DNA of 59,130 nt from an uncultured Thermomicrobiales bacterium (GTDB lineage: Bacteria; Chloroflexota; Chloroflexia; Thermomicrobiales; UBA6265), in contig CADCWE010000229.1 in NCBI GenBank assembly GCA_902806325.1, positions 1 to 59,130 on the forward strand, read 5' to 3'. Every line of letters starts with the position of its first letter. Positions within the stretch are counted from its first letter, which is position 1. The notes below the pieces were generated by a model, which worked only from the letters and a program-made list of their open reading frames with translations, made no database searches and was not told the origin of the DNA. Shown one piece after another: positions 1,919 through 7,498 of this stretch. The position numbers were made by a program, and so were the translations under genes.

Positions 1919-3192
1919 GATCCGTCCAGGTGGCGGTGGTCGGCGGCGGCCCGGCGGGCTTGATGGCCGCGATCGCGGCGCGCGGCGCCGGCGCCGAGGT
2001 CGCGCTCTTCGACGAGCACCCGACCTTCGGCGGGCAATTGCGCTACCGGGCGACCGGGTTGGCCGGGATCGTTTCGCCGATCTCGGGTCGGGCGGGGCTG
2101 CCACCGCCGGCGCTGGTCGCCGGGTTGATCGGCGTCGCCGCGTCGTCCGGCGTCTCGCTGCGGCCGAACGCCGTGGTCTGGGGCATCTTCGCGGACAACG
2201 AACTCGGCGTCAGCGGGCCGGACGGCGGCGACCGGGTGCGGGCGGAGCGGGTGGTGCTCGCCACCGGCGCCACCGACCGGCCGCTGCCGTTCGCGGGGGG
2301 CACATTGCCGGGCGTGTTCTCTGGCCGTGCCCTCCAGATCTTGCTCAACCAGCACCGGGTCCGGCCGGGGCGGCGGGTGGTGGTCCTCGGCGCGGGGGCC
2401 GAAGCGGCCGAGGTGGCGGCGGACGCGCGGTTGGCCGGGGCGGACGTCGTGGCGGTCTTCGACCCCGGCGACGATTGGGGCGCGGTCGTCGCCGAAGGCC
2501 GGGATGGGGTCGAGGCCGTGTCCCTTGGCGGTCAGCGCCACGCCGCCGACGTGGTCGCGGTCGCCGTCGGTCGCCAACCGGACGCGACCCTGGCGTTGGT
2601 AGCGGGCTGCGCGGCCGGATACGCCGCCGACCGGGGCGGACTGGTGCCCGTGCGCGACCGGCGGCTGGGTGGCACCGTGCCCGGCATCCTGATCGCCGGG
2701 GACGCCGCGGGCGTCGGCGAGGTCGCCGACGCCTTCGCCGAAGGCACCGTGGCCGGGCTGGTCGCCGCCGTCGACCTCGGGTTCTCGGCCGGTGACGCGC
2801 TGGCCACGGCGCTGGACCGGCTCCATGGGTTGGCCCCGGATCGCCTCGCCCCGGTTGCCCCGCTGGGCCAGGGCGACCCGGCTGGCGCGACACCATGGGA
2901 GCCGGTCGGGGCGGAATCGGCCGGTGGACCGCGGGCGGTGGTCTGCCGGTGCGAGGCGGTCGCCAAGGGCGAGATCGTGGCGGCGATCGCCGCCGGTGCC
3001 CGGACGATCAACGACGTCAAGCGGCGGACCCGGGCCGGGATGGGCACCTGCCAGGGCGTGTACTGCGTCGCCGCGATGGCGGCGTTGCTGGGACACCACG
3101 CCGGGATCCCGCCGGACCGGCTCGACCCGATGACGGCCCGGCCGCCGGTCCGCCCGATCCCGCTCGGTGCGGTGACGGATTCCAACGGGTAG
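1915..3192 (+). CDS. FAD/NAD(P)-dependent oxidoreductase with C-terminal BFD-like 2Fe-2S domain (OoxA/HcnB/SoxA-like)
   Basis: GGGPAG, LATGA, IAGDAAG motifs; C-terminal VCRCE..VKRRTRAGMGTCQG..C..RPP. Confidence 0.88.
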   Translation: MRSVQVAVVGGGPAGLMAAIAARGAGAEVALFDEHPTFGGQLRYRATGLAGIVSPISGRAGLPPPALVAGLIGVAASSGVSLRPNAVVWGIFADNELGVSGPDGGDRVRAERVVLATGATDRPLPFAGGTLPGVFSGRALQILLNQHRVRPGRRVVVLGAGAEAAEVAADARLAGADVVAVFDPGDDWGAVVAEGRDGVEAVSLGGQRHAADVVAVAVGRQPDATLALVAGCAAGYAADRGGLVPVRDRRLGGTVPGILIAGDAAGVGEVADAFAEGTVAGLVAAVDLGFSAGDALATALDRLHGLAPDRLAPVAPLGQGDPAGATPWEPVGAESAGGPRAVVCRCEAVAKGEIVAAIAAGARTINDVKRRTRAGMGTCQGVYCVAAMAALLGHHAGIPPDRLDPMTARPPVRPIPLGAVTDSNG

Positions 3193-3327: not shown

Positions 3328-4530
3328 GTGGCCTCGACCCCGTTCCCGCGTTCCCCGAGGTGGCCCTTGACCCCGCCGATGACGCCGACCCGGGTGATGA
3401 TCAACACGCTGGCGGTGTTGTTCGTGATCGGGCTGGTCTGGCTCGTGATCCAGATCCGCTCGATCATGCTGGTGCTGATCCTCGGCATCCTGCTCGCGGC
3501 GGCGATCGAGCCGCTGGTCAACCGGCTGCGACGGCGCGGCTTTTCGCGCGGCCAGGCGATCATGGCGATCTACGCCGGGTTGCTCCTGACCCTGGCCCTC
3601 CTGATCTACCTGGTGGTGCCGCCGCTGATCACCCAGGCGACGGGTCTGTTCGACGAGATCCCGGGCATCTTCGACAACCTCGAACAGCAAGCCGTGGCCA
3701 GCCGCAACGACTTCATCCGGTCGGCCGGCGTGCGCACGATCCGGCGCCTCGATTCAACCTGGACCAACCTCCAAACCAACCCGCCGATCGGCACCGACAC
3801 CGCCCTCGGCCTGGTCACTTCCGTCCTCGGGGTGCTCGTGACCACCGTGACCGTGATGATCGTCGCCTTCTATTGGATGACCGAGAAGGCGATCATCAAG
3901 CGCCTGATCCTGGGGCTCGTCCCGCTGGACCGGCGGGACCGGGCGCACGGGTTGTGGGACGAGATCGAGGGCAAACTCGGCGGTTGGACCCGCGGCCAAC
4001 TGATCCTGATGGGCGTGATCGGGGTCATCTCGGCGATCGCCTACTTCGCCCTCGGCCTGGAGTTCTGGCTCCCCCTCGGGATCTGGGCCGGGCTGACGGA
4101 ACTGATCCCGTTCATCGGGCCCTTCCTCGGCGGCGCGGCGGCGGTGCTGGTGGCGTTGACGGAGTCGTGGCAAAAGGCGCTGATCGTGGTCGGGTTCGTG
4201 CTGATCCTGCAGCAGTTGGAAGGCTCGGTGCTGGTGCCGCGGGTGATGCGCAACGCCGTCGGGATGAGCCCGCTGACGGTGATCCTGGCGGTGCTGATCG
4301 GCGGCGTGCTGCTGGGGCCGTTCGGCTCGGTGCTGGCGATTCCGGTCGGCGCCGCGGTGCAGGTGGTCCTCCAGGACCTCCTCCGGGAACGGGAGAACGA
4401 CATCGACACGGGCGAGACGGGCGAACGGATGGCCGCCGCGCTCGCGGGCCGGCTGGAGCAGGTGGTCCCCCCGCCGGCGATCGAGCCGGTCGGCGCCGGC
4501 CGCGGCGCGGCGGGCGATGGGGGCGACTAG
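3328..4530 (+). CDS. AI-2E family transporter
   Basis: Multiple TM helices; ELIPFIGP, QQLEGSVLVPRVM, LAIPVGA motifs. Confidence 0.9.
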   Translation: MASTPFPRSPRWPLTPPMTPTRVMINTLAVLFVIGLVWLVIQIRSIMLVLILGILLAAAIEPLVNRLRRRGFSRGQAIMAIYAGLLLTLALLIYLVVPPLITQATGLFDEIPGIFDNLEQQAVASRNDFIRSAGVRTIRRLDSTWTNLQTNPPIGTDTALGLVTSVLGVLVTTVTVMIVAFYWMTEKAIIKRLILGLVPLDRRDRAHGLWDEIEGKLGGWTRGQLILMGVIGVISAIAYFALGLEFWLPLGIWAGLTELIPFIGPFLGGAAAVLVALTESWQKALIVVGFVLILQQLEGSVLVPRVMRNAVGMSPLTVILAVLIGGVLLGPFGSVLAIPVGAAVQVVLQDLLRERENDIDTGETGERMAAALAGRLEQVVPPPAIEPVGAGRGAAGDGGD

Positions 4531-4584: not shown

Positions 4585-5640
4585 ATGGACGCGGGGGTGG
4601 CGGCGAGGGCGACGGGACACGGTGCGGCCGGGTCGCTGGCGCGGACGCTGGTCGGGTTGTTCGACGACCGCATCGACGCCGAGCTGGCGTTGGCGGCGCT
4701 ACGCAAGTCGGAGCGCCCGGCCGATCAAATTTCGGTCGTGGTCCGCGACCGCGAAAACGGCGACGAGGCCGAGCGCACCGACGTCGCCCGCGCCCTGGTC
4801 GCCTCCGCGTTGGACGCGGTCGGCGGCTGGTTGCAAGGCCTGGCCGCCCTGATCGTCCCGGAACGGGGAACCTTTCTGGTGGCCGGGCCGATCGGCGCGG
4901 CGTTGGCCGGGATCAAGGGCGATCCGAGCGGACAACGCGGTGCGCTCGCGGTCACCGCGACCGGCAACTTGGACTCCACCGCGCTTTGCAACACCCTGCA
5001 CGGCTTCGGGTTCACCGCCGACGAGGCCAGCTACCTCGATTCGCGGCTGAACGCGGGCTCGACCTTGATCGCGGTCTCGCTCGACGACCCGAAGACGCTC
5101 GGCGAGATGCGACGCTTTTTCGCCGAACACAACGCCGTCCACATCGGCCTCGCCCAAACCGACGAGGGGCACGTCGCGCGGGTGCGCGCCCTCATGGCCG
5201 CGCCGCCGGAACGGTCGAGCGAGGGCGACGTGTTGGTCGCCGACGCGGTGGCGCCGCTGCGCCGCCTCTGCCACCCCCTGGACGGGGACCGGGCCCCGGC
5301 GTGCGGTCGGATGGTGATCGACGAGGACGGCAACGAGATCGGCGCGGTCGCCGAGGTCCTGGCCGACAACGACCCCGGCAGCGGTTCCGGCGACGCGACG
5401 GTGGTCCGCTATCTGGTCGTGGCCTACGGCGGCGTGCTCGGGATCGGTCGCCACCACGTCGTGGTGCCGATCGAGCTGGCGGACGTGTCGGTGGTCCCGG
5501 TGCGGGTGGTCGCCGACAAGGAGCTGGTCCGTCACGCCCCGTCGTTCGACGCCGACGACCCGTTCAGCCGCCGCGAAGAAGATGCGGTCTGCGCCTACTA
5601 TGGCGTCCGGCGCTACTGGCTGACCAACGGGGAGGCGTAG
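4585..5640 (+). CDS. General-stress-protein-like N-terminal domain fused to a PRC-barrel domain
   Basis: LVGLFDDRIDAELALAAL..ISVV and LVAGPIGAAL in the N-half; GRMVIDEDGNEIGAVAEV..VRYLVVAYGGVLGIG..VVVP..YYG in the C-half. Confidence 0.72.
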   Translation: MDAGVAARATGHGAAGSLARTLVGLFDDRIDAELALAALRKSERPADQISVVVRDRENGDEAERTDVARALVASALDAVGGWLQGLAALIVPERGTFLVAGPIGAALAGIKGDPSGQRGALAVTATGNLDSTALCNTLHGFGFTADEASYLDSRLNAGSTLIAVSLDDPKTLGEMRRFFAEHNAVHIGLAQTDEGHVARVRALMAAPPERSSEGDVLVADAVAPLRRLCHPLDGDRAPACGRMVIDEDGNEIGAVAEVLADNDPGSGSGDATVVRYLVVAYGGVLGIGRHHVVVPIELADVSVVPVRVVADKELVRHAPSFDADDPFSRREEDAVCAYYGVRRYWLTNGEA

Positions 5641-5655
5641 GCCCGGCCCGACCGG

Positions 5656-6111
5656 CTACGGTTCGTCCTCGGCGGCGTTGATCGCGGCCAGCACTTCACC
5701 GGGGGGCGGCGCGCCGGCTTCGCGGAACACGACGCGGCCGTTCTTGCCGACGACGACGACCGTGCGCGCGATCCCCGAGCCGTCCGGTTTGGTTGCGCCG
5801 TAGGCGGTGGCGACCGCCAACCCATCGTCGACCAGGAGGTCGAACGGGAAGCCCTGGGCCTCGACGAAGGCGCGGTGGCTGTCGGCGCTGCCGTGGTTGA
5901 TCCCGTACGGTTCGGTGCCGGCGGCGCGGAATTCGGCGATGGCGTCGCCCACGGCGACGAGCTGGTCCGTTCAGCCGGAGGTCGCGTCCTTCGGGTAGAA
6001 GATCAACAGCGCCCGCTTGACCCCGCGCAGATCGCGCAGCCGCGTTTCTTCCCCGTGCGCGCCGTGCAGCGCGAAGTCCGGCGCCTCGTCTCCAACCTCG
6101 ACCTGGGCCAC
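5656..6111 (-). CDS. bcp: Peroxiredoxin (BCP/PrxQ type), probable selenoprotein with Sec encoded by TGA at 5971-5973
   Basis: ORFs 5971..6210 and 5656..5952 share one frame: VGDEAPDFAL..LLIFYPKDATSG-TGA-TDQL..FPFDLLVD..VATAYG..IARTVVVVGKNGRV. The TGA sits at the PxxxTxxC cysteine. GTG start at 6111 with AAGGAG RBS. Confidence 0.85.
5943..5959 (-). promoter_or_regulatory. Bacterial SECIS-like stem-loop
   Basis: CGUCGCC-GUG-GGCGACG: 17 nt, starts 11 nt 3' of the in-frame UGA, with GU in the apex. Confidence 0.7.
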
Positions 6112-6242
6112 TGTCGGCTCCTTCCCCGTGTTGGTGTCGCGCTCCGATCGGCCGCCATTGTACGCTCCCGGTACGATGGTGGACCGCCACGCTTCGACTC
6201 GGGACTTCACCGTGCCGGGCTCGGGTCGAACCCAGGAGTGTC

Positions 6243-6953
6243 ATGGATCGTCCAGCCGCCGTCGCCGCGCTCTACGACATCCACGGCAACCTGGCCGCGC
6301 TGGAGGCGGTCCTGGCCGAGGTGGAACGGCTGGGAATCGAGCGGATCGTGGTCGGCGGGGATATCGTTTGGGGGCCGGAGCCGGTGCCGACCCTGGAGCG
6401 GTTGATGCGGCTCGGCAGCCGCGCCCGGTTCATCCGCGGCAATGCCGACCGCGAGGTCGCGGACGGGTCCGCCGGGCCGAACGCGGACCCGGCGGTGGAG
6501 GTGGTCACGCGCTGGTGCCACCGCCAACTGAACGCCGGGCAACGCGCGTTCTTGGGCGCGCTGCCGGAGCGGGTCTCGTTGGACGTGCCGGGGTGGGGCC
6601 CGATCCTGTTTTGCCACGGGTCGCCGCGCCGGGACGACGAGGCGATCCACGCCTGGACGAGGGAGGAGGACCTGGCGCCGATGGTCGCCGCGGTCCGCGA
6701 GGGGGTCGTGGTCTGCGGCCACACCCACGCGCCGTTCGACCGCGACGGGGCCGGAAAGCGGATCGTCAACGCCGGCAGCGTTGGCTTGCAGTACGGCGCG
6801 GGCGCCAGTTGGGCGCTGGTGGGACCGGAGATTGAGCTGCGCCGGACCCCGTACGACGTCGAGGCGGCGGCGACGCGGATTCGGCGCTCGGGCGTACCGG
6901 ACCCGGAAATCTTCGCCGACCATATCCTCGACCCGCCGCCGATGCCGACCTAG
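6243..6953 (+). CDS. Metallophosphoesterase (calcineurin-like, YfcE-type)
   Basis: DIHGN, GD, GNAD, CHGSP, GHTH, NAGSVG motifs. Confidence 0.92.
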   Translation: MDRPAAVAALYDIHGNLAALEAVLAEVERLGIERIVVGGDIVWGPEPVPTLERLMRLGSRARFIRGNADREVADGSAGPNADPAVEVVTRWCHRQLNAGQRAFLGALPERVSLDVPGWGPILFCHGSPRRDDEAIHAWTREEDLAPMVAAVREGVVVCGHTHAPFDRDGAGKRIVNAGSVGLQYGAGASWALVGPEIELRRTPYDVEAAATRIRRSGVPDPEIFADHILDPPPMPT

Positions 6954-7498
6954 CGGAACACGTCCGCGACCGGTAGCCGGAACCCCGGCAGCACGTCCTC
7001 GCCGTCCAGGGCGTCGCCGTCGCCGAGGGTGACCGGCCCGCGACCGGCGCGGTGGACATCCACGACCCGGCGTGGCGGGTCGGCGTACCAGACCAGCGCT
7101 GTGCCGGCGTCGAGGTATTCGCGGACCTTGCGAACGACGTCGGGGCCGGTCTCGGACGGGGAGCGGATCTCGACGGCGAGGTCTGGAGGCCCCGGAAAGT
7201 AGCCGTCGTCGGCGTCGTCGGCGGGAATCCGATCGGCGCGCACGAAGGCGACGTCCGGGCAGACCAGGGTCAGCGGCTCGCGAGAGAGCAGGAATCCGGT
7301 CTCGGCCGAATACACCCGCCCCGACCCGTGCCGGCGGACGAACCAGCCGAGGCCGAAGTGAAACTCGTCCGCGCTCTCGCCGTGCTTGCGGGTCGCCGCC
7401 GCCAACCGGATCAACTCCCCGCGGATCACGTCGTAGCGGTGGGCGTCGTCCGGCAGCGCAGCCACGTCGGCAAGGGTGAACAGGGCGGTCGTGTTCAT
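6950..7498 (-). CDS. Uma2 family (PD-(D/E)XK) endonuclease
   Basis: YDVIRGEL, PDVAFV, PDLAVEIRSPS, KVREYLDAG, VLPGFRLPVADVF. Confidence 0.92.
   Translation of the reverse strand: MNTTALFTLADVAALPDDAHRYDVIRGELIRLAAATRKHGESADEFHFGLGWFVRRHGSGRVYSAETGFLLSREPLTLVCPDVAFVRADRIPADDADDGYFPGPPDLAVEIRSPSETGPDVVRKVREYLDAGTALVWYADPPRRVVDVHRAGRGPVTLGDGDALDGEDVLPGFRLPVADVFR

What the first reader, a model, noticed from the sequence alone, without database searches (positions are those of the whole stretch)
5656..6111. Hidden selenoprotein: BCP/PrxQ peroxiredoxin with UGA at the catalytic Cys and a SECIS-like hairpin
Seen: two ORFs in the track are one frame broken only by TGA (5971-5973) in FYPKDATSG-TGA-TDQL; the joined 151-aa protein has no Cys at all; a perfect 7-bp stem with a GUG loop (5959-5943) begins 11 nt after the UGA. 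Established: PxxxTxxC carries the peroxidatic Cys of peroxiredoxins, and the E. coli fdhF SECIS is a 17-nt upper stem-loop 11 nt from the UGA with an apical GU. Inference: this is a 1-Sec peroxiredoxin with no resolving Cys that pipelines would call a pseudogene or two fragments. It implies Sec decoding in this organism.
Basis: partly seen in the sequence, partly recalled or inferred. Interest (0 to 1): 0.85.

Follow-up and report, generated by a model that had tools for sequence, protein, structure and literature searches.

The report
Selenocysteine peroxiredoxin gene split by annotation
This is a real peroxide-detoxifying enzyme gene whose catalytic residue is selenocysteine encoded by UGA, so gene callers cut it in two; the enzyme type is already known, but here it is shared by most of a family of soil Chloroflexota.

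Summary
Window 6111-5656 (minus strand) is one 151-codon frame. It is broken only by TGA 5973-5971, at the peroxidatic position of PxxxTxxC. A 7-bp/GUG hairpin starts 11 nt after the TGA.

- **Protein:** it is a full-length AhpC/TSA peroxiredoxin (Pfam E 4e-31; model pLDDT 96; nearest folds BCP/PrxQ and AhpE).
- **TGA/Cys alternation:** in 86 genomes of the same family with an ortholog, 52 carry one in-frame TGA and 34 do not. The TGA lies at the catalytic column in 50 of the 50 I checked, and the 8 non-TGA orthologs I read have TGC there.
- **Hairpin:** it is kept with compensatory changes in TGA forms (76.5% paired against 32-51% in slid controls; loop G-U invariant in 50 of 50). Cys forms lack it (39.3%).
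- **Machinery:** the genome has selA, a full selB, a Sec-containing selD and a TGA-containing fdhA.
- **Sequence check:** an independent metagenome contig carries the same TGA.

The weak point is that tRNA-Sec is not in this 93.6%-complete, 273-contig assembly. There is also no protein-level evidence.

Sec peroxiredoxins (TxxU) have been known since 2001-2005, so this is a new member of a known kind. The gene itself is of modest interest. More notable is that the genome carries at least 10 candidate selenoprotein genes.

The parts
5656..6111 (-). Complete selenoprotein gene: 151 codons (GTG start 6111-6109, UGA-Sec codon 47, TAG stop 5658-5656). It encodes a 1-Sec peroxiredoxin of the AhpC/TSA family.
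   Evidence: frame. (PF00578 E 4e-31, residues 6-129 on profile 1-123/124). (model pLDDT 96, pTM 0.91). (Foldseek: BCP and AhpE chains, TM 0.82-0.91).
5971..5973 (-). In-frame UGA read as selenocysteine (U47), at the peroxidatic position of P40-x-x-x-T44-x-x-U47.
   Evidence: TGA lies at this column in 13 of the first 21 orthologs, with TGC in the other 8, and in 37 of 37 further TGA rows fetched. It is unchanged in independent DNA contig X3 record 10, which spans 5876-6216.
5943..5959 (-). SECIS-type hairpin: 7-bp stem and GUG apical loop, 11 nt after the UGA (18 nt from the UGA to the loop).
   Evidence: Across 50 TGA-form orthologs, 76.5% of cells pair against 32-51% when slid, 42 cells have changes on both sides (shuffles 21.5, 0/500), and loop G22 U23 is invariant. 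Cys forms pair at 39.3%, no better than slid controls. It fits the published bSECIS constraints (PMC13188914 Fig. 2 legend).
5934..5969 (-). Possible lower extension of the hairpin (3 further pairs, CGG/CCG) in the minimum-energy fold. It was not tested for conservation.
   Evidence: MFE -13.8 kcal/mol for this span. This is inference only.
6118..6123 (-). Shine-Dalgarno-like AAGGAG, 6 nt upstream of the GTG start.
   Evidence: Read directly from the sequence. The start position agrees with homolog N-termini.
5764..5766 (-). Codon of R116, the conserved active-site arginine of peroxiredoxins (…GIARTVVVVGK…).
   Evidence: R116 is invariant in the 36-sequence alignment A3. The coordinate is computed from the start at 6111. 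The residue's role is established knowledge, recalled.

Best explanation
The locus is one gene for a selenocysteine-containing peroxiredoxin in a Thermomicrobiales (Chloroflexota) genome from soil or biocrust. The enzyme is 1-Cys-type and BCP/PrxQ-AhpE-like.

**Decoding (inferred).** During translation, SelB carrying Sec-tRNA(Sec) binds the mRNA hairpin 11 nt downstream of UGA-47. The hairpin has a 5-7 bp stem and an apical loop with an invariant G-U. This inserts Sec instead of terminating, giving a 151-residue enzyme.

**Chemistry (inferred from the family).** The selenolate U47 is activated by P40, T44 and R116. It attacks a hydroperoxide and becomes a selenenic acid. The protein has no other Cys, so it must be recycled by an external thiol partner, such as a thioredoxin- or glutaredoxin-like protein or a low-molecular-weight thiol.

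**What is shown here:**
- the frame, the family, the fold and the active-site motif;
- TGA/Cys alternation at the catalytic column;
- a covarying hairpin specific to TGA forms;
- SelA, SelB and SelD genes, and other TGA-containing selenoprotein genes, in the same genome;
- the TGA in an independent sample.

**What is inferred:** actual Sec insertion, the SelB-hairpin contact, the peroxidase activity and the reductant.
For: 1. **Family and fold.** PF00578 E 4e-31 over the full length. AlphaFold model pLDDT 96. The Foldseek top hits are all peroxiredoxins: BCP 9a4d_B, 5enu, AhpE 1xvw (TM 0.90), Bcp1 3drn (TM 0.87-0.88). The profile search against PDB gives Bcp1 3drn 89.7 bits and AhpE 76 bits. 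P40, T44 and R116 are invariant in 36 homologs.
2. **Sec/Cys alternation.**
   - Of 108 genomes of the same family, 86 have a match at E <= 1e-30. 52 of these carry one in-frame TGA and 34 carry none (91 rows: 52 TGA, 39 none).
   - I read the TGA at the FYPxDxTxG-U column in 13 + 37 = 50 of these 52. The other 2 were not fetched.
   - The 8 non-TGA orthologs I read have TGC there.
   - Amino-acid conservation runs through the TGA on both sides.
3. **Hairpin.**
   - With 13 TGA forms: 75.8% paired, 5 of 7 pairs with changes on both sides, covariation 0.277 against 0.126 in shuffles (0/500).
   - With 50 TGA forms: 76.5% paired, 42 doubly changed cells against 21.5, covariation 0.260 against 0.108 (0/500), slid controls 32-51%. 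G22 and U23 are invariant.
   - With 8 Cys forms: 39.3% paired, which 465/500 shuffles reach.
   - A hairpin meeting the bSECIS constraints at MFE <= -7.5 kcal/mol was found in 12 of 13 TGA forms and 1 of 8 Cys forms (constraints from PMC13188914).
4. **Machinery and other selenoprotein genes in G000.**
   - selA.
   - selB, a 652-aa ORF with GTP_EFTU, D2, the SelB beta-barrel, and SelB-wing_2 and wing_3.
   - selD with TGA in …AAG-U-AGK….
   - fdhA with TGA in …ARI-U-HSASV….
   - Seven further thioredoxin-fold or CMD genes with TGA in UxxC/CxxU-type motifs.
5. **Not a sequencing error.** X3 comes from a different study and its contig 5876-6216 has 2 other differences, so it is a different strain. 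It keeps the TGA.
6. **Co-occurrence with tRNA-Sec.** Among the 12 same-family relatives scanned, all 3 with the TGA form (G002, G003, G006) have a tRNA-Sec above cut-off. All 4 that have an ortholog but no tRNA-Sec (G001, G004, G007, G008) have the Cys form.
Against: - **tRNA-Sec is missing.** It was not found in this assembly by several methods:
  - ARAGORN at default settings found none.
  - The best RF01852 hits score 41 bits against a cut-off of 47, and ARAGORN calls the six places looked at ordinary tRNAs (Trp, Gly, two Ser, two Leu).
  - blastn with eight relatives' tRNA-Sec sequences found nothing longer than 19 nt in the rows I saw (output cut at 3000 characters).
  - My own structural pattern scan gave 0 hits.
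- **The gap argument is unproven.** Synteny around selC is not conserved among relatives, so I could not show that it lies in an assembly gap.
- **The hairpin is not unusually stable on its own** for this base composition (z 0.08). RNAalifold's own consensus keeps only 3 pairs.
- **Pairing is imperfect.** About a quarter of cells do not pair in the fixed register, partly because some orthologs have a bulged 3' arm. One of 13 TGA forms (G003) reaches only -6.3 kcal/mol within the 48 nt examined.
- **Transcription is not demonstrated.** Contigs from RNA libraries cover both halves of the gene, but none has 31 nt on both sides of the TGA, and such libraries can hold DNA.
- **No selenium-level evidence exists.** There is no protein, mass-spectrometry or 75Se evidence.
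- **Relatives are not independent**, so the counts overstate the number of independent events.
Confidence: 0.92

Rival explanations
1. The gene is a pseudogene (or two unrelated short ORFs) created by a nonsense mutation at the catalytic Cys codon, and only fragments, if anything, are made.
For: Table 11 reads it as two ORFs. The protein collection holds the window's own product only as the 98-aa C-terminal piece, P0008. tRNA-Sec was not found in the assembly.
Against: The same TGA sits at the same column in 50 of 50 orthologs checked, at 47-73% identity, with conservation on both sides. A nonsense mutation would not persist across genera. The TGA-specific covarying hairpin and an intact Sec machinery with Sec-SelD and Sec-FdhA are not expected for decay.
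Confidence: 0.02
2. The TGA is a sequencing or assembly error of TGC/TGT in this metagenome-assembled genome.
For: The source is a 273-contig metagenomic assembly. Cys forms up to 72% identical exist.
Against: An independent DNA run from another study (X3, record 10, 5876-6216, two other differences) bridges the site with no difference at 5971-5973. RNA-library contigs X2 (5622-5980) and X7 (5958-6130) also read it unchanged. 49 other checked genomes have TGA at this column.
Confidence: 0.01
3. UGA-47 is read, but not as Sec. It could be read as Trp or Gly under a reassigned code, as Cys, or by near-cognate read-through, and the hairpin only slows termination.
For: One database homolog (P0026, 9 member sequences) is recorded with W at this column. 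No tRNA-Sec was found in the assembly. Cys can be loaded on the Sec pathway when selenium is scarce (recalled, not checked here).
Against: The column is Cys in 35 of 36 aligned sequences (34 database homologs plus the query's stand-in C for U47), and it is the essential peroxidatic residue. TGA is the commonest terminator of open frames of 600 codons or more in this genome (599 TGA, 487 TAG, 210 TAA; a crude count), so it is not globally reassigned. The W in P0026 is most simply a pipeline translating TGA with a TGA=Trp table (inference). The genome's other in-frame TGAs all fall in classic Sec motifs: SelD G-U-A-G-K, FdhA R-I-U-H, and UxxC/CxxU.
Confidence: 0.04
4. Sec is inserted, but the 5943-5959 hairpin is not the functional SECIS. 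Its conservation is a by-product of the conserved V/S-A-V-R/G-D peptide and codon bias, and another element recruits SelB.
For: The hairpin lies in a conserved coding stretch. Its energy is unremarkable for the composition. RNAalifold keeps only 3 pairs. The review notes that some bacterial SECIS elements do not fit the consensus model.
Against: Pairs 15-31, 16-30, 17-29, 18-28 and 21-25 change on both sides while staying paired (42 cells; 0/500 shuffles reach this). Sliding the partner by 1-3 nt drops pairing from 76.5% to 32-51%. The loop G-U, which includes a synonymous-free position, is invariant in 50 of 50. Cys forms lose the helix. Spacing (18 nt), loop size (3 nt) and loop G all fit the published model.
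Confidence: 0.07

Closest known systems
Sec-containing peroxiredoxin (Prx) selenoprotein family, motif (P)xxxTxxU. First shown in Eubacterium acidaminophilum (PrxU, Söhling 2001), then found computationally in many bacteria and metagenomes.
   Same: It has the same Pfam family (PF00578), the same T-x-x-U active-site motif, and Sec in place of the peroxidatic Cys, with Cys homologs widespread. The review table lists 'Peroxiredoxin (Prx) PF00578 TxxU' and a conserved PxxxTxxU motif (PMC13188914 passages). The Sargasso Sea study lists 43 Prx selenoproteins under COG1225 with TXXU (PMC1088965 passages). A 2016 survey lists 91 Prx selenoproteins in 78 organisms (PMC5029168 passage).
   Different: It is not the PrxU equivalog: NF040737 scores 38.2 bits against a cut-off of 270. 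It belongs to a short (about 150 aa) clade with a single redox residue that is confined, as far as I searched, to one Thermomicrobiales family. Neither of my two searches aimed at this found a paper describing Sec peroxiredoxins in Thermomicrobiales. The papers' supplementary tables could not be opened and might list such members.
BCP/PrxQ peroxiredoxins (e.g. Sulfolobus solfataricus Bcp1, PDB 3drn; Xanthomonas PrxQ, 5iiz)
   Same: They give the best profile match in PDB (3drn 89.7 bits, 2ywn 83.4) and have the same fold (TM 0.82-0.88). Sources name the Cys homologs 'peroxiredoxin Q/BCP'. The best NCBIfam model is Bcp, PRK09437.
   Different: The score is below the NCBIfam Bcp cut-off (63.8 against 140). 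There is no second Cys: typical 2-Cys BCPs have a resolving Cys five residues after the peroxidatic one (recalled). Here that position is Leu, and 23 of 34 Cys-form database homologs in A3 have one Cys only. It uses Sec instead of Cys.
Mycobacterium tuberculosis AhpE (Rv2238c), the 1-Cys peroxiredoxin subfamily
   Same: It is the best single-sequence PDB hit (55.9 bits, E 4e-14) and gives the highest TM-scores and lowest rmsd to the model (0.90-0.91, 1.5-1.6 Å). It also has a single redox residue and similar length.
   Different: Identity is only 28-30%. The profile search ranks BCP chains higher. AhpE uses Cys and is known from Actinobacteria (recalled).
Escherichia coli fdhF SECIS and the bacterial SECIS consensus model
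   Same: The hairpin lies in the coding sequence just after the UGA. It is a 17-nt stem-loop starting 11 nt from the UGA, with G-U in a small apical loop. It meets all four constraints quoted in PMC13188914 Fig. 2: loop 3-9 nt, stem 4-16 bp, G in the first two loop positions, and 16-37 nt from UGA to loop with MFE <= -7.5 kcal/mol.
   Different: It has no bulged U in the upper stem as in fdhF (recalled). In most orthologs the loop is effectively C-GUG-C on a 5-bp core. Binding to this organism's SelB is untested.

Membership tests
Peroxiredoxin (AhpC/TSA, PF00578) | Significant full-length match to the family profile | tested here: met
   PF00578 E 4e-31, 108 bits against a cut-off of 26, residues 6-129 on profile 1-123/124.
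Peroxiredoxin (AhpC/TSA, PF00578) | Active-site PxxxTxxC(U) motif plus the conserved distal Arg | tested here: met
   P40-K-D-A-T44-S-G-U47. P40, T44 and R116 are invariant in 36 homologs.
Peroxiredoxin (AhpC/TSA, PF00578) | Thioredoxin-type Prx fold | tested here: met
   Model pLDDT 96, pTM 0.91. The listed Foldseek matches are all peroxiredoxins, TM 0.80-0.91.
Peroxiredoxin (AhpC/TSA, PF00578) | Peroxidase activity | not testable with these tools
   This needs an enzyme assay.
BCP/PrxQ subfamily | Scores as Bcp/PrxQ with curated subfamily models | tested here: not met
   PRK09437 (Bcp) 63.8 bits against a cut-off of 140. PrxQ (NF053650) 59.4 bits against 260.
BCP/PrxQ subfamily | Closer to BCP/PrxQ than to other Prx subfamilies | tested here: inconclusive
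   The profile search ranks Bcp1 3drn first (89.7 bits) and AhpE next (76 bits). The single-sequence search ranks AhpE first (55.9) and BCP at 47.6. Foldseek E-values favour BCP and TM-scores favour AhpE.
AhpE (1-Cys) subfamily | Single redox-active residue, no resolving Cys | tested here: met
   There is no Cys codon in the gene apart from U47. 23 of 34 Cys-form database homologs in A3 have one Cys.
Bacterial selenoprotein (SelB/SECIS-dependent UGA recoding) | In-frame UGA aligned with Cys in homologs, with conservation on both sides | tested here: met
   50 of 50 checked TGA orthologs and 8 of 8 checked Cys orthologs share this column. Family tally: 52 TGA against 34 non-TGA genomes.
Bacterial selenoprotein (SelB/SECIS-dependent UGA recoding) | [quoted passage not shown] | tested here: met
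   Own sequence: 7 bp, loop GUG, 18 nt spacing, -13.8 kcal/mol with the lower stem. Covariation is shown. The constraints come from PMC13188914.
Bacterial selenoprotein (SelB/SECIS-dependent UGA recoding) | selA, selB and selD in the genome | tested here: met
Bacterial selenoprotein (SelB/SECIS-dependent UGA recoding) | tRNA-Sec (selC) in the genome | tested here: inconclusive
   It was not found in the assembly. The assembly is 93.6% complete in 273 contigs. 15 of 20 relatives have one above cut-off, at contig ends in 2 of the 15.
Bacterial selenoprotein (SelB/SECIS-dependent UGA recoding) | Selenium actually incorporated at the UGA | not testable with these tools
   This needs 75Se labelling or mass spectrometry.
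PrxU (NCBIfam NF040737 equivalog) | Score above the equivalog cut-off | tested here: not met
   38.2 bits against a cut-off of 270.

The most novel reading that the evidence does not exclude
This gene is the ancestral state of a whole clade. A family of Thermomicrobiales from soils and biocrusts, presumably aerobic, is selenoprotein-rich, with at least 10 candidate Sec genes in this genome, mostly thioredoxin-fold. It has kept a 1-Sec peroxiredoxin with no resolving Cys in most members, and reverted Sec to Cys repeatedly where the Sec trait was lost. Such a lineage would run against the view that aerobic bacteria rarely keep selenoproteins. It would also suggest that Sec in a single-residue peroxiredoxin is selected for resistance to irreversible over-oxidation in desiccation- and light-stressed crusts.
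Probability: 0.35. Interest if true: 0.5.

Novelty: new member of a known kind. Interest (0 to 1): 0.3.

Why it matters
**Annotation.** The gene is currently stored as a 98-aa fragment. At least 18 of the 120 listed database homologs are similar 97-119-aa C-terminal pieces, and one is recorded with Trp at the catalytic site. An active antioxidant enzyme is therefore being mis-annotated across a whole family of soil Chloroflexota.

**Biology.** The case adds a well-supported clade (TGA in 52 of 86 genomes with an ortholog) to the known Sec-peroxiredoxin family. It comes with a clean natural Sec/Cys series and a covarying SECIS, useful for studying Sec-to-Cys exchange and SelB-SECIS recognition in a high-G+C lineage.

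**Wider point.** The genome's many other TGA-containing redox genes point to a selenoprotein-rich organism from an oxic habitat. According to the reviews read here, that is uncommon.

The finding does not reveal a new mechanism.

Tried and rejected
- **Rfam scan of 5000-7000** at E <= 10 gave only two chance-level hits (13.4 and 12.8 bits). Nothing in it was a SECIS.
- **Promoter and terminator consensus scan** of 5500-6350 found none, so transcript ends remain unknown.
- **RNAalifold on the 13 TGA forms** kept only 3 pairs.
- **tRNA-Sec hunts in G000:**
  - ARAGORN at default settings found none.
  - The RF01852 own-genome hits are all below cut-off; ARAGORN calls the six places looked at ordinary tRNAs.
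  - Rfam E-value scans around selA, selB and selD found only ordinary tRNAs.
  - ARAGORN at relaxed thresholds gave one candidate at -ps95 (C25:722-810). I rejected it because it has a poor D-arm and no match to relatives' tRNA-Sec in the blastn rows I saw. At -ps85 there were 23 such calls among 4988 calls in all, which is noise.
  - My own pattern scan gave 0 hits.
  - blastn with eight relatives' tRNA-Sec sequences found nothing in the rows I saw.
- **Synteny, to place selC in a gap:**
  - One relative's flank maps to the very end of contig C185.
  - That neighbour is not shared by the nine other relatives' selC loci compared.
  - Flanks of three of them (L066-L068) map to contig interiors, except one short hit at the start of C31.
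  - I dropped the argument.
- **RNA-library contigs:**
  - X2 covers 5622-5980 and 6006-6174. X7 covers 5736-5918 and 5958-6130.
  - None has 31 nt on both sides of the TGA, and contigs cannot show expression, so I do not claim transcription.
- **Neighbouring genes** give no functional link: AI-2E transporter, a weak YflT/PRC-barrel protein, a metallophosphoesterase and Uma2.
- **Complex prediction, the protein-atlas search and the search of protein representatives** were not used because they were not needed.
Tables S6/S7 of PMC1794560, on the Sec/Cys peroxiredoxin distribution, may bear on the novelty claim.
- **Unpublished genomes.** G006, G010, G069, G085 and G108 are unpublished, and the following rest partly on them:
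  - The 13/8 split and alignments A1, A2 and A4 include G006 (a TGA form, L038) and G010 (a Cys form, L034).
  - The tree includes both.
  - The 52/34 tally includes G006, G069 and G108 (TGA) and G010 and G085 (none). Without the five it is 49 TGA and 32 none, of 81 genomes.
  - The tRNA-Sec co-occurrence count includes G006 and G010.
Full report
**Observation**

On the minus strand, 6111-5656 is a single reading frame of 151 codons with one internal stop, TGA at 5973-5971, in FYPKDATSG-TGA-TDQL. Table 11 splits it into ORFs 5971..6210 and 5656..5952. The read-through product has no Cys codon. Eleven nucleotides after the UGA lies CGUCGCC-GUG-GGCGACG (5959-5943), a perfect 7-bp stem with a 3-nt loop. 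The GTG at 6111 is preceded by AAGGAG with a 6-nt spacer and agrees with the N-termini of full-length homologs.

**What the protein is**

The joined product matches Pfam AhpC/TSA over the whole domain (E 4e-31). The AlphaFold model built on 36 homologs is confident (pLDDT 96, pTM 0.91). Its listed Foldseek neighbours are all peroxiredoxins. P40, T44 and R116, the residues that with the peroxidatic Cys make the Prx active site (recalled knowledge), are invariant in the alignment.

Subfamily assignment is not clean.
- NCBIfam's Bcp and PrxQ models score far below their cut-offs (63.8 against 140; 59.4 against 260).
- A profile search of PDB ranks archaeal Bcp1 (3drn, 89.7 bits) above M. tuberculosis AhpE (76 bits).
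- The single sequence ranks AhpE first, and AhpE gives the best TM-scores (0.90-0.91).

I therefore call it a short, 1-Cys-type BCP/PrxQ-AhpE-like peroxiredoxin. It is not the PrxU equivalog (38.2 against 270).

**Sec/Cys alternation**

A six-frame search of 40 relatives found orthologs with '1 TGA' inside the match. Reading the 21 closest (all in the same taxonomic family, at least 45% identity) gave TGA at the catalytic column in 13 and TGC in 8. Conservation continues on both sides.

A search of all 108 held genomes of the family found a match at E <= 1e-30 in 86. Of these, 52 have one TGA and 34 have none (91 rows). I fetched 37 of the 39 further TGA rows (the 2 from unpublished genomes were left out). 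All 37 have TGA at FYPxDxTxG-U.

On a maximum-likelihood tree, the 21 orthologs form one clade (support 98/97), with Sec and Cys forms interspersed. The ML tree needs 6 changes, and the well-supported branches alone force at least 2. One Cys group (G008, G001, G004) is nested inside Sec forms.

**The hairpin**

In the fixed register (columns 15-21 with 25-31 after the UGA):

| Set | Cells paired | Other measures |
|---|---|---|
| 13 TGA forms | 75.8% | 5 of 7 pairs changed on both sides |
| 50 TGA forms | 76.5% | 42 doubly changed cells against 21.5 in shuffles (0/500); covariation 0.260 against 0.108 (0/500) |
| 50 TGA forms, partner slid 1-3 nt | 32-51% | control |
| 8 Cys forms | 39.3% | no better than slid or shuffled controls |

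Loop positions G22 and U23 are invariant in 50 of 50. The core is a 5-bp helix with a C-GUG-C or GUN loop. This window's copy extends the helix to 7 bp.

The element meets the published bacterial SECIS constraints: loop 3-9 nt, stem 4-16 bp, G in the first two loop positions, 16-37 nt from UGA to loop, and MFE <= -7.5 kcal/mol (PMC13188914 Fig. 2 legend, passages read). In my own scan, 12 of 13 TGA forms and 1 of 8 Cys forms have such a hairpin.

Two cautions apply. The single-sequence fold is no more stable than shuffles of this G+C-rich stretch (z 0.08). RNAalifold by itself keeps only 3 pairs. The argument therefore rests on comparative data.

**Sec machinery**

The window's genome (G000, 4.17 Mb, 273 contigs, 93.6% complete) encodes:
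- SelA (408.7 bits).
- SelB, a 652-aa ORF with the GTPase domain, domain 2, the SelB beta-barrel and both SelB winged-helix domains.
- SelD, with an in-frame TGA in …AAG-U-AGK….

FdhA also has a TGA, in …ARI-U-HSASV…, followed by a stable hairpin.

tRNA-Sec was not found by ARAGORN, by Rfam RF01852, by a pattern scan or by blastn with eight relatives' tRNA-Sec sequences, in the rows I saw. Those eight share an identical 26-nt 3' part. Fifteen of 20 relatives have a tRNA-Sec above cut-off, and two of the 15 lie at contig ends. The gene is most likely unassembled here, but I could not show that.

Among the 12 same-family relatives scanned for tRNA-Sec:
- The 3 with the TGA form all have one.
- The 4 that have an ortholog but lack tRNA-Sec all have the Cys form.

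This is a small sample of related genomes.

**Independent sequence**

Public runs holding this stretch are biocrust and soil metagenomes and metatranscriptomes. A DNA contig from a different study (X3, 5876-6216) differs at two other places and bridges the TGA unchanged. RNA-library contigs cover both halves of the gene, but none bridges the TGA by 31 nt on each side. A sequencing error is excluded. Transcription is not shown.

**How databases see it**

Full-length Cys homologs of 149-162 aa are named 'peroxiredoxin Q/BCP' or 'peroxiredoxin', and are from Thermomicrobiales, Chloroflexia or Chloroflexota where a name is given. The window's own product is stored as the 98-aa C-terminal piece (P0008). 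At least 18 of the 120 listed hits are 97-119-aa pieces covering 54-78% of the query. One cluster (P0026) has W at the catalytic column. This is probably a TGA=Trp translation (inference).

**Comparison with what is known**

Sec peroxiredoxins are an established family.
- The 2026 review lists 'Peroxiredoxin (Prx), PF00578, TxxU' and speaks of a conserved PxxxTxxU motif, citing Söhling 2001 (passages).
- The Sargasso Sea study found 43 Prx selenoproteins under COG1225 with TXXU (passages).
- The 2006 survey counted 12 Prx selenoproteins with five Cys-to-Sec events, and only 3 selenoproteins in Chloroflexi (passages).
- The 2016 survey counted 91 in 78 organisms (passage).

Neither of my two searches aimed at this returned a paper on selenoproteins of Thermomicrobiales or on a Sec-containing PrxQ/BCP/AhpE clade like this one. 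Supplements were closed. The finding is therefore a new member, in fact a new clade, of a known kind.

**Mechanism**

The frame, the motif, the fold, TGA/Cys alternation, the TGA-specific covarying hairpin, and the Sec genes are shown.

The rest is inferred from established knowledge of bacterial Sec decoding and of 1-Cys peroxiredoxins:
- SelB·GTP·Sec-tRNA(Sec) binds the hairpin and decodes UGA-47.
- U47 reduces peroxides through a selenenic acid.
- With no resolving Cys, an external thiol system regenerates it.

The identity of the reductant is unknown.

**In passing**

The same genome has seven more TGA-interrupted redox genes with classic motifs:
- Five AhpC/TSA-type genes, four with UxxC and one with UxC.
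- One AhpD/CMD-type gene with CxxU.
- One SelW/Rdx-type gene with CxxU.

With SelD, FdhA and this gene, that makes at least 10 candidates. The reviews read here say selenoprotein-rich bacteria are mostly anaerobes, so this count is notable for a soil or biocrust organism.

**Verdict**

The remaining doubt is the unassembled tRNA-Sec and the absence of protein-level evidence. Novelty is a new member of a known kind, and interest is modest (0.3).

Noticed in passing
G000 contigs outside the window: C202:13934-14281(+), C202:13143-13493(+), C142:2436-2897(-), C262:43738-44058(+), C10:11485-11841(+): Five more AhpC/TSA-family genes each have one in-frame TGA at the redox motif: GDW-U-PYC, GSW-U-GC, HFG-U-TPC, TYG-U-INC and SLT-U-PYC. 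They look like 'Prx-like thiol:disulfide oxidoreductase' selenoproteins. Two of them sit about 440 nt apart on C202.
   Followed up: partly
G000 C260:5103-5351(+) and C152:15886-16092(+): A CMD/AhpD-like gene has TGA in NNCEF-U-QD (CxxU). A Rdx/SelW-like gene has TGA in EYCTS-U-GY (CxxU). With SelD, FdhA and the six AhpC/TSA genes, the genome has at least 10 candidate selenoprotein genes.
   Followed up: partly
G000 C27:3953-4900(-) and C3:3888-7199(+): SelD is itself a selenoprotein here (…AAG-U-AGK…). FdhA has TGA in …ARI-U-HSASV…. Both are followed by stable hairpins in 60-nt folds.
   Followed up: partly
Other families of the same order (e.g. G019:C1:428369-428767, G015:C1:1921353-1921751, G013:C63:34241-34633): A second, more distant peroxiredoxin group (31-36% identity to this protein) also shows '1 TGA' inside the match in 10 rows from other families of the order. 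Sec peroxiredoxins may therefore have arisen, or been kept, more than once in this order. The position of those TGAs was not checked.
   Followed up: no
Protein P0026 (database cluster of 9 sequences): This homolog is recorded with Trp at the catalytic column (YPADRTAG-W-TNQL) and has no Cys at all. It is probably a Sec form translated with a TGA=Trp table by the source pipeline.
   Followed up: no
window 6950-7498(-), 6243-6953(+), 4585-5640(+), 3328-4530(+): The neighbours are a Uma2-family putative endonuclease, a calcineurin-like metallophosphoesterase, a protein with weak YflT and PRC-barrel matches, and an AI-2E family transporter. The peroxiredoxin gene is flanked by a convergent and a divergent gene and looks monocistronic.
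   Followed up: partly
G000 C185:1-1226: In one relative (G005), the gene next to tRNA-Sec has its G000 ortholog running to within 6 nt of the start of the 3.6-kb contig C185. This is a weak hint of where selC might be missing. The neighbourhood is not shared by the nine other relatives' selC loci compared.
   Followed up: partly
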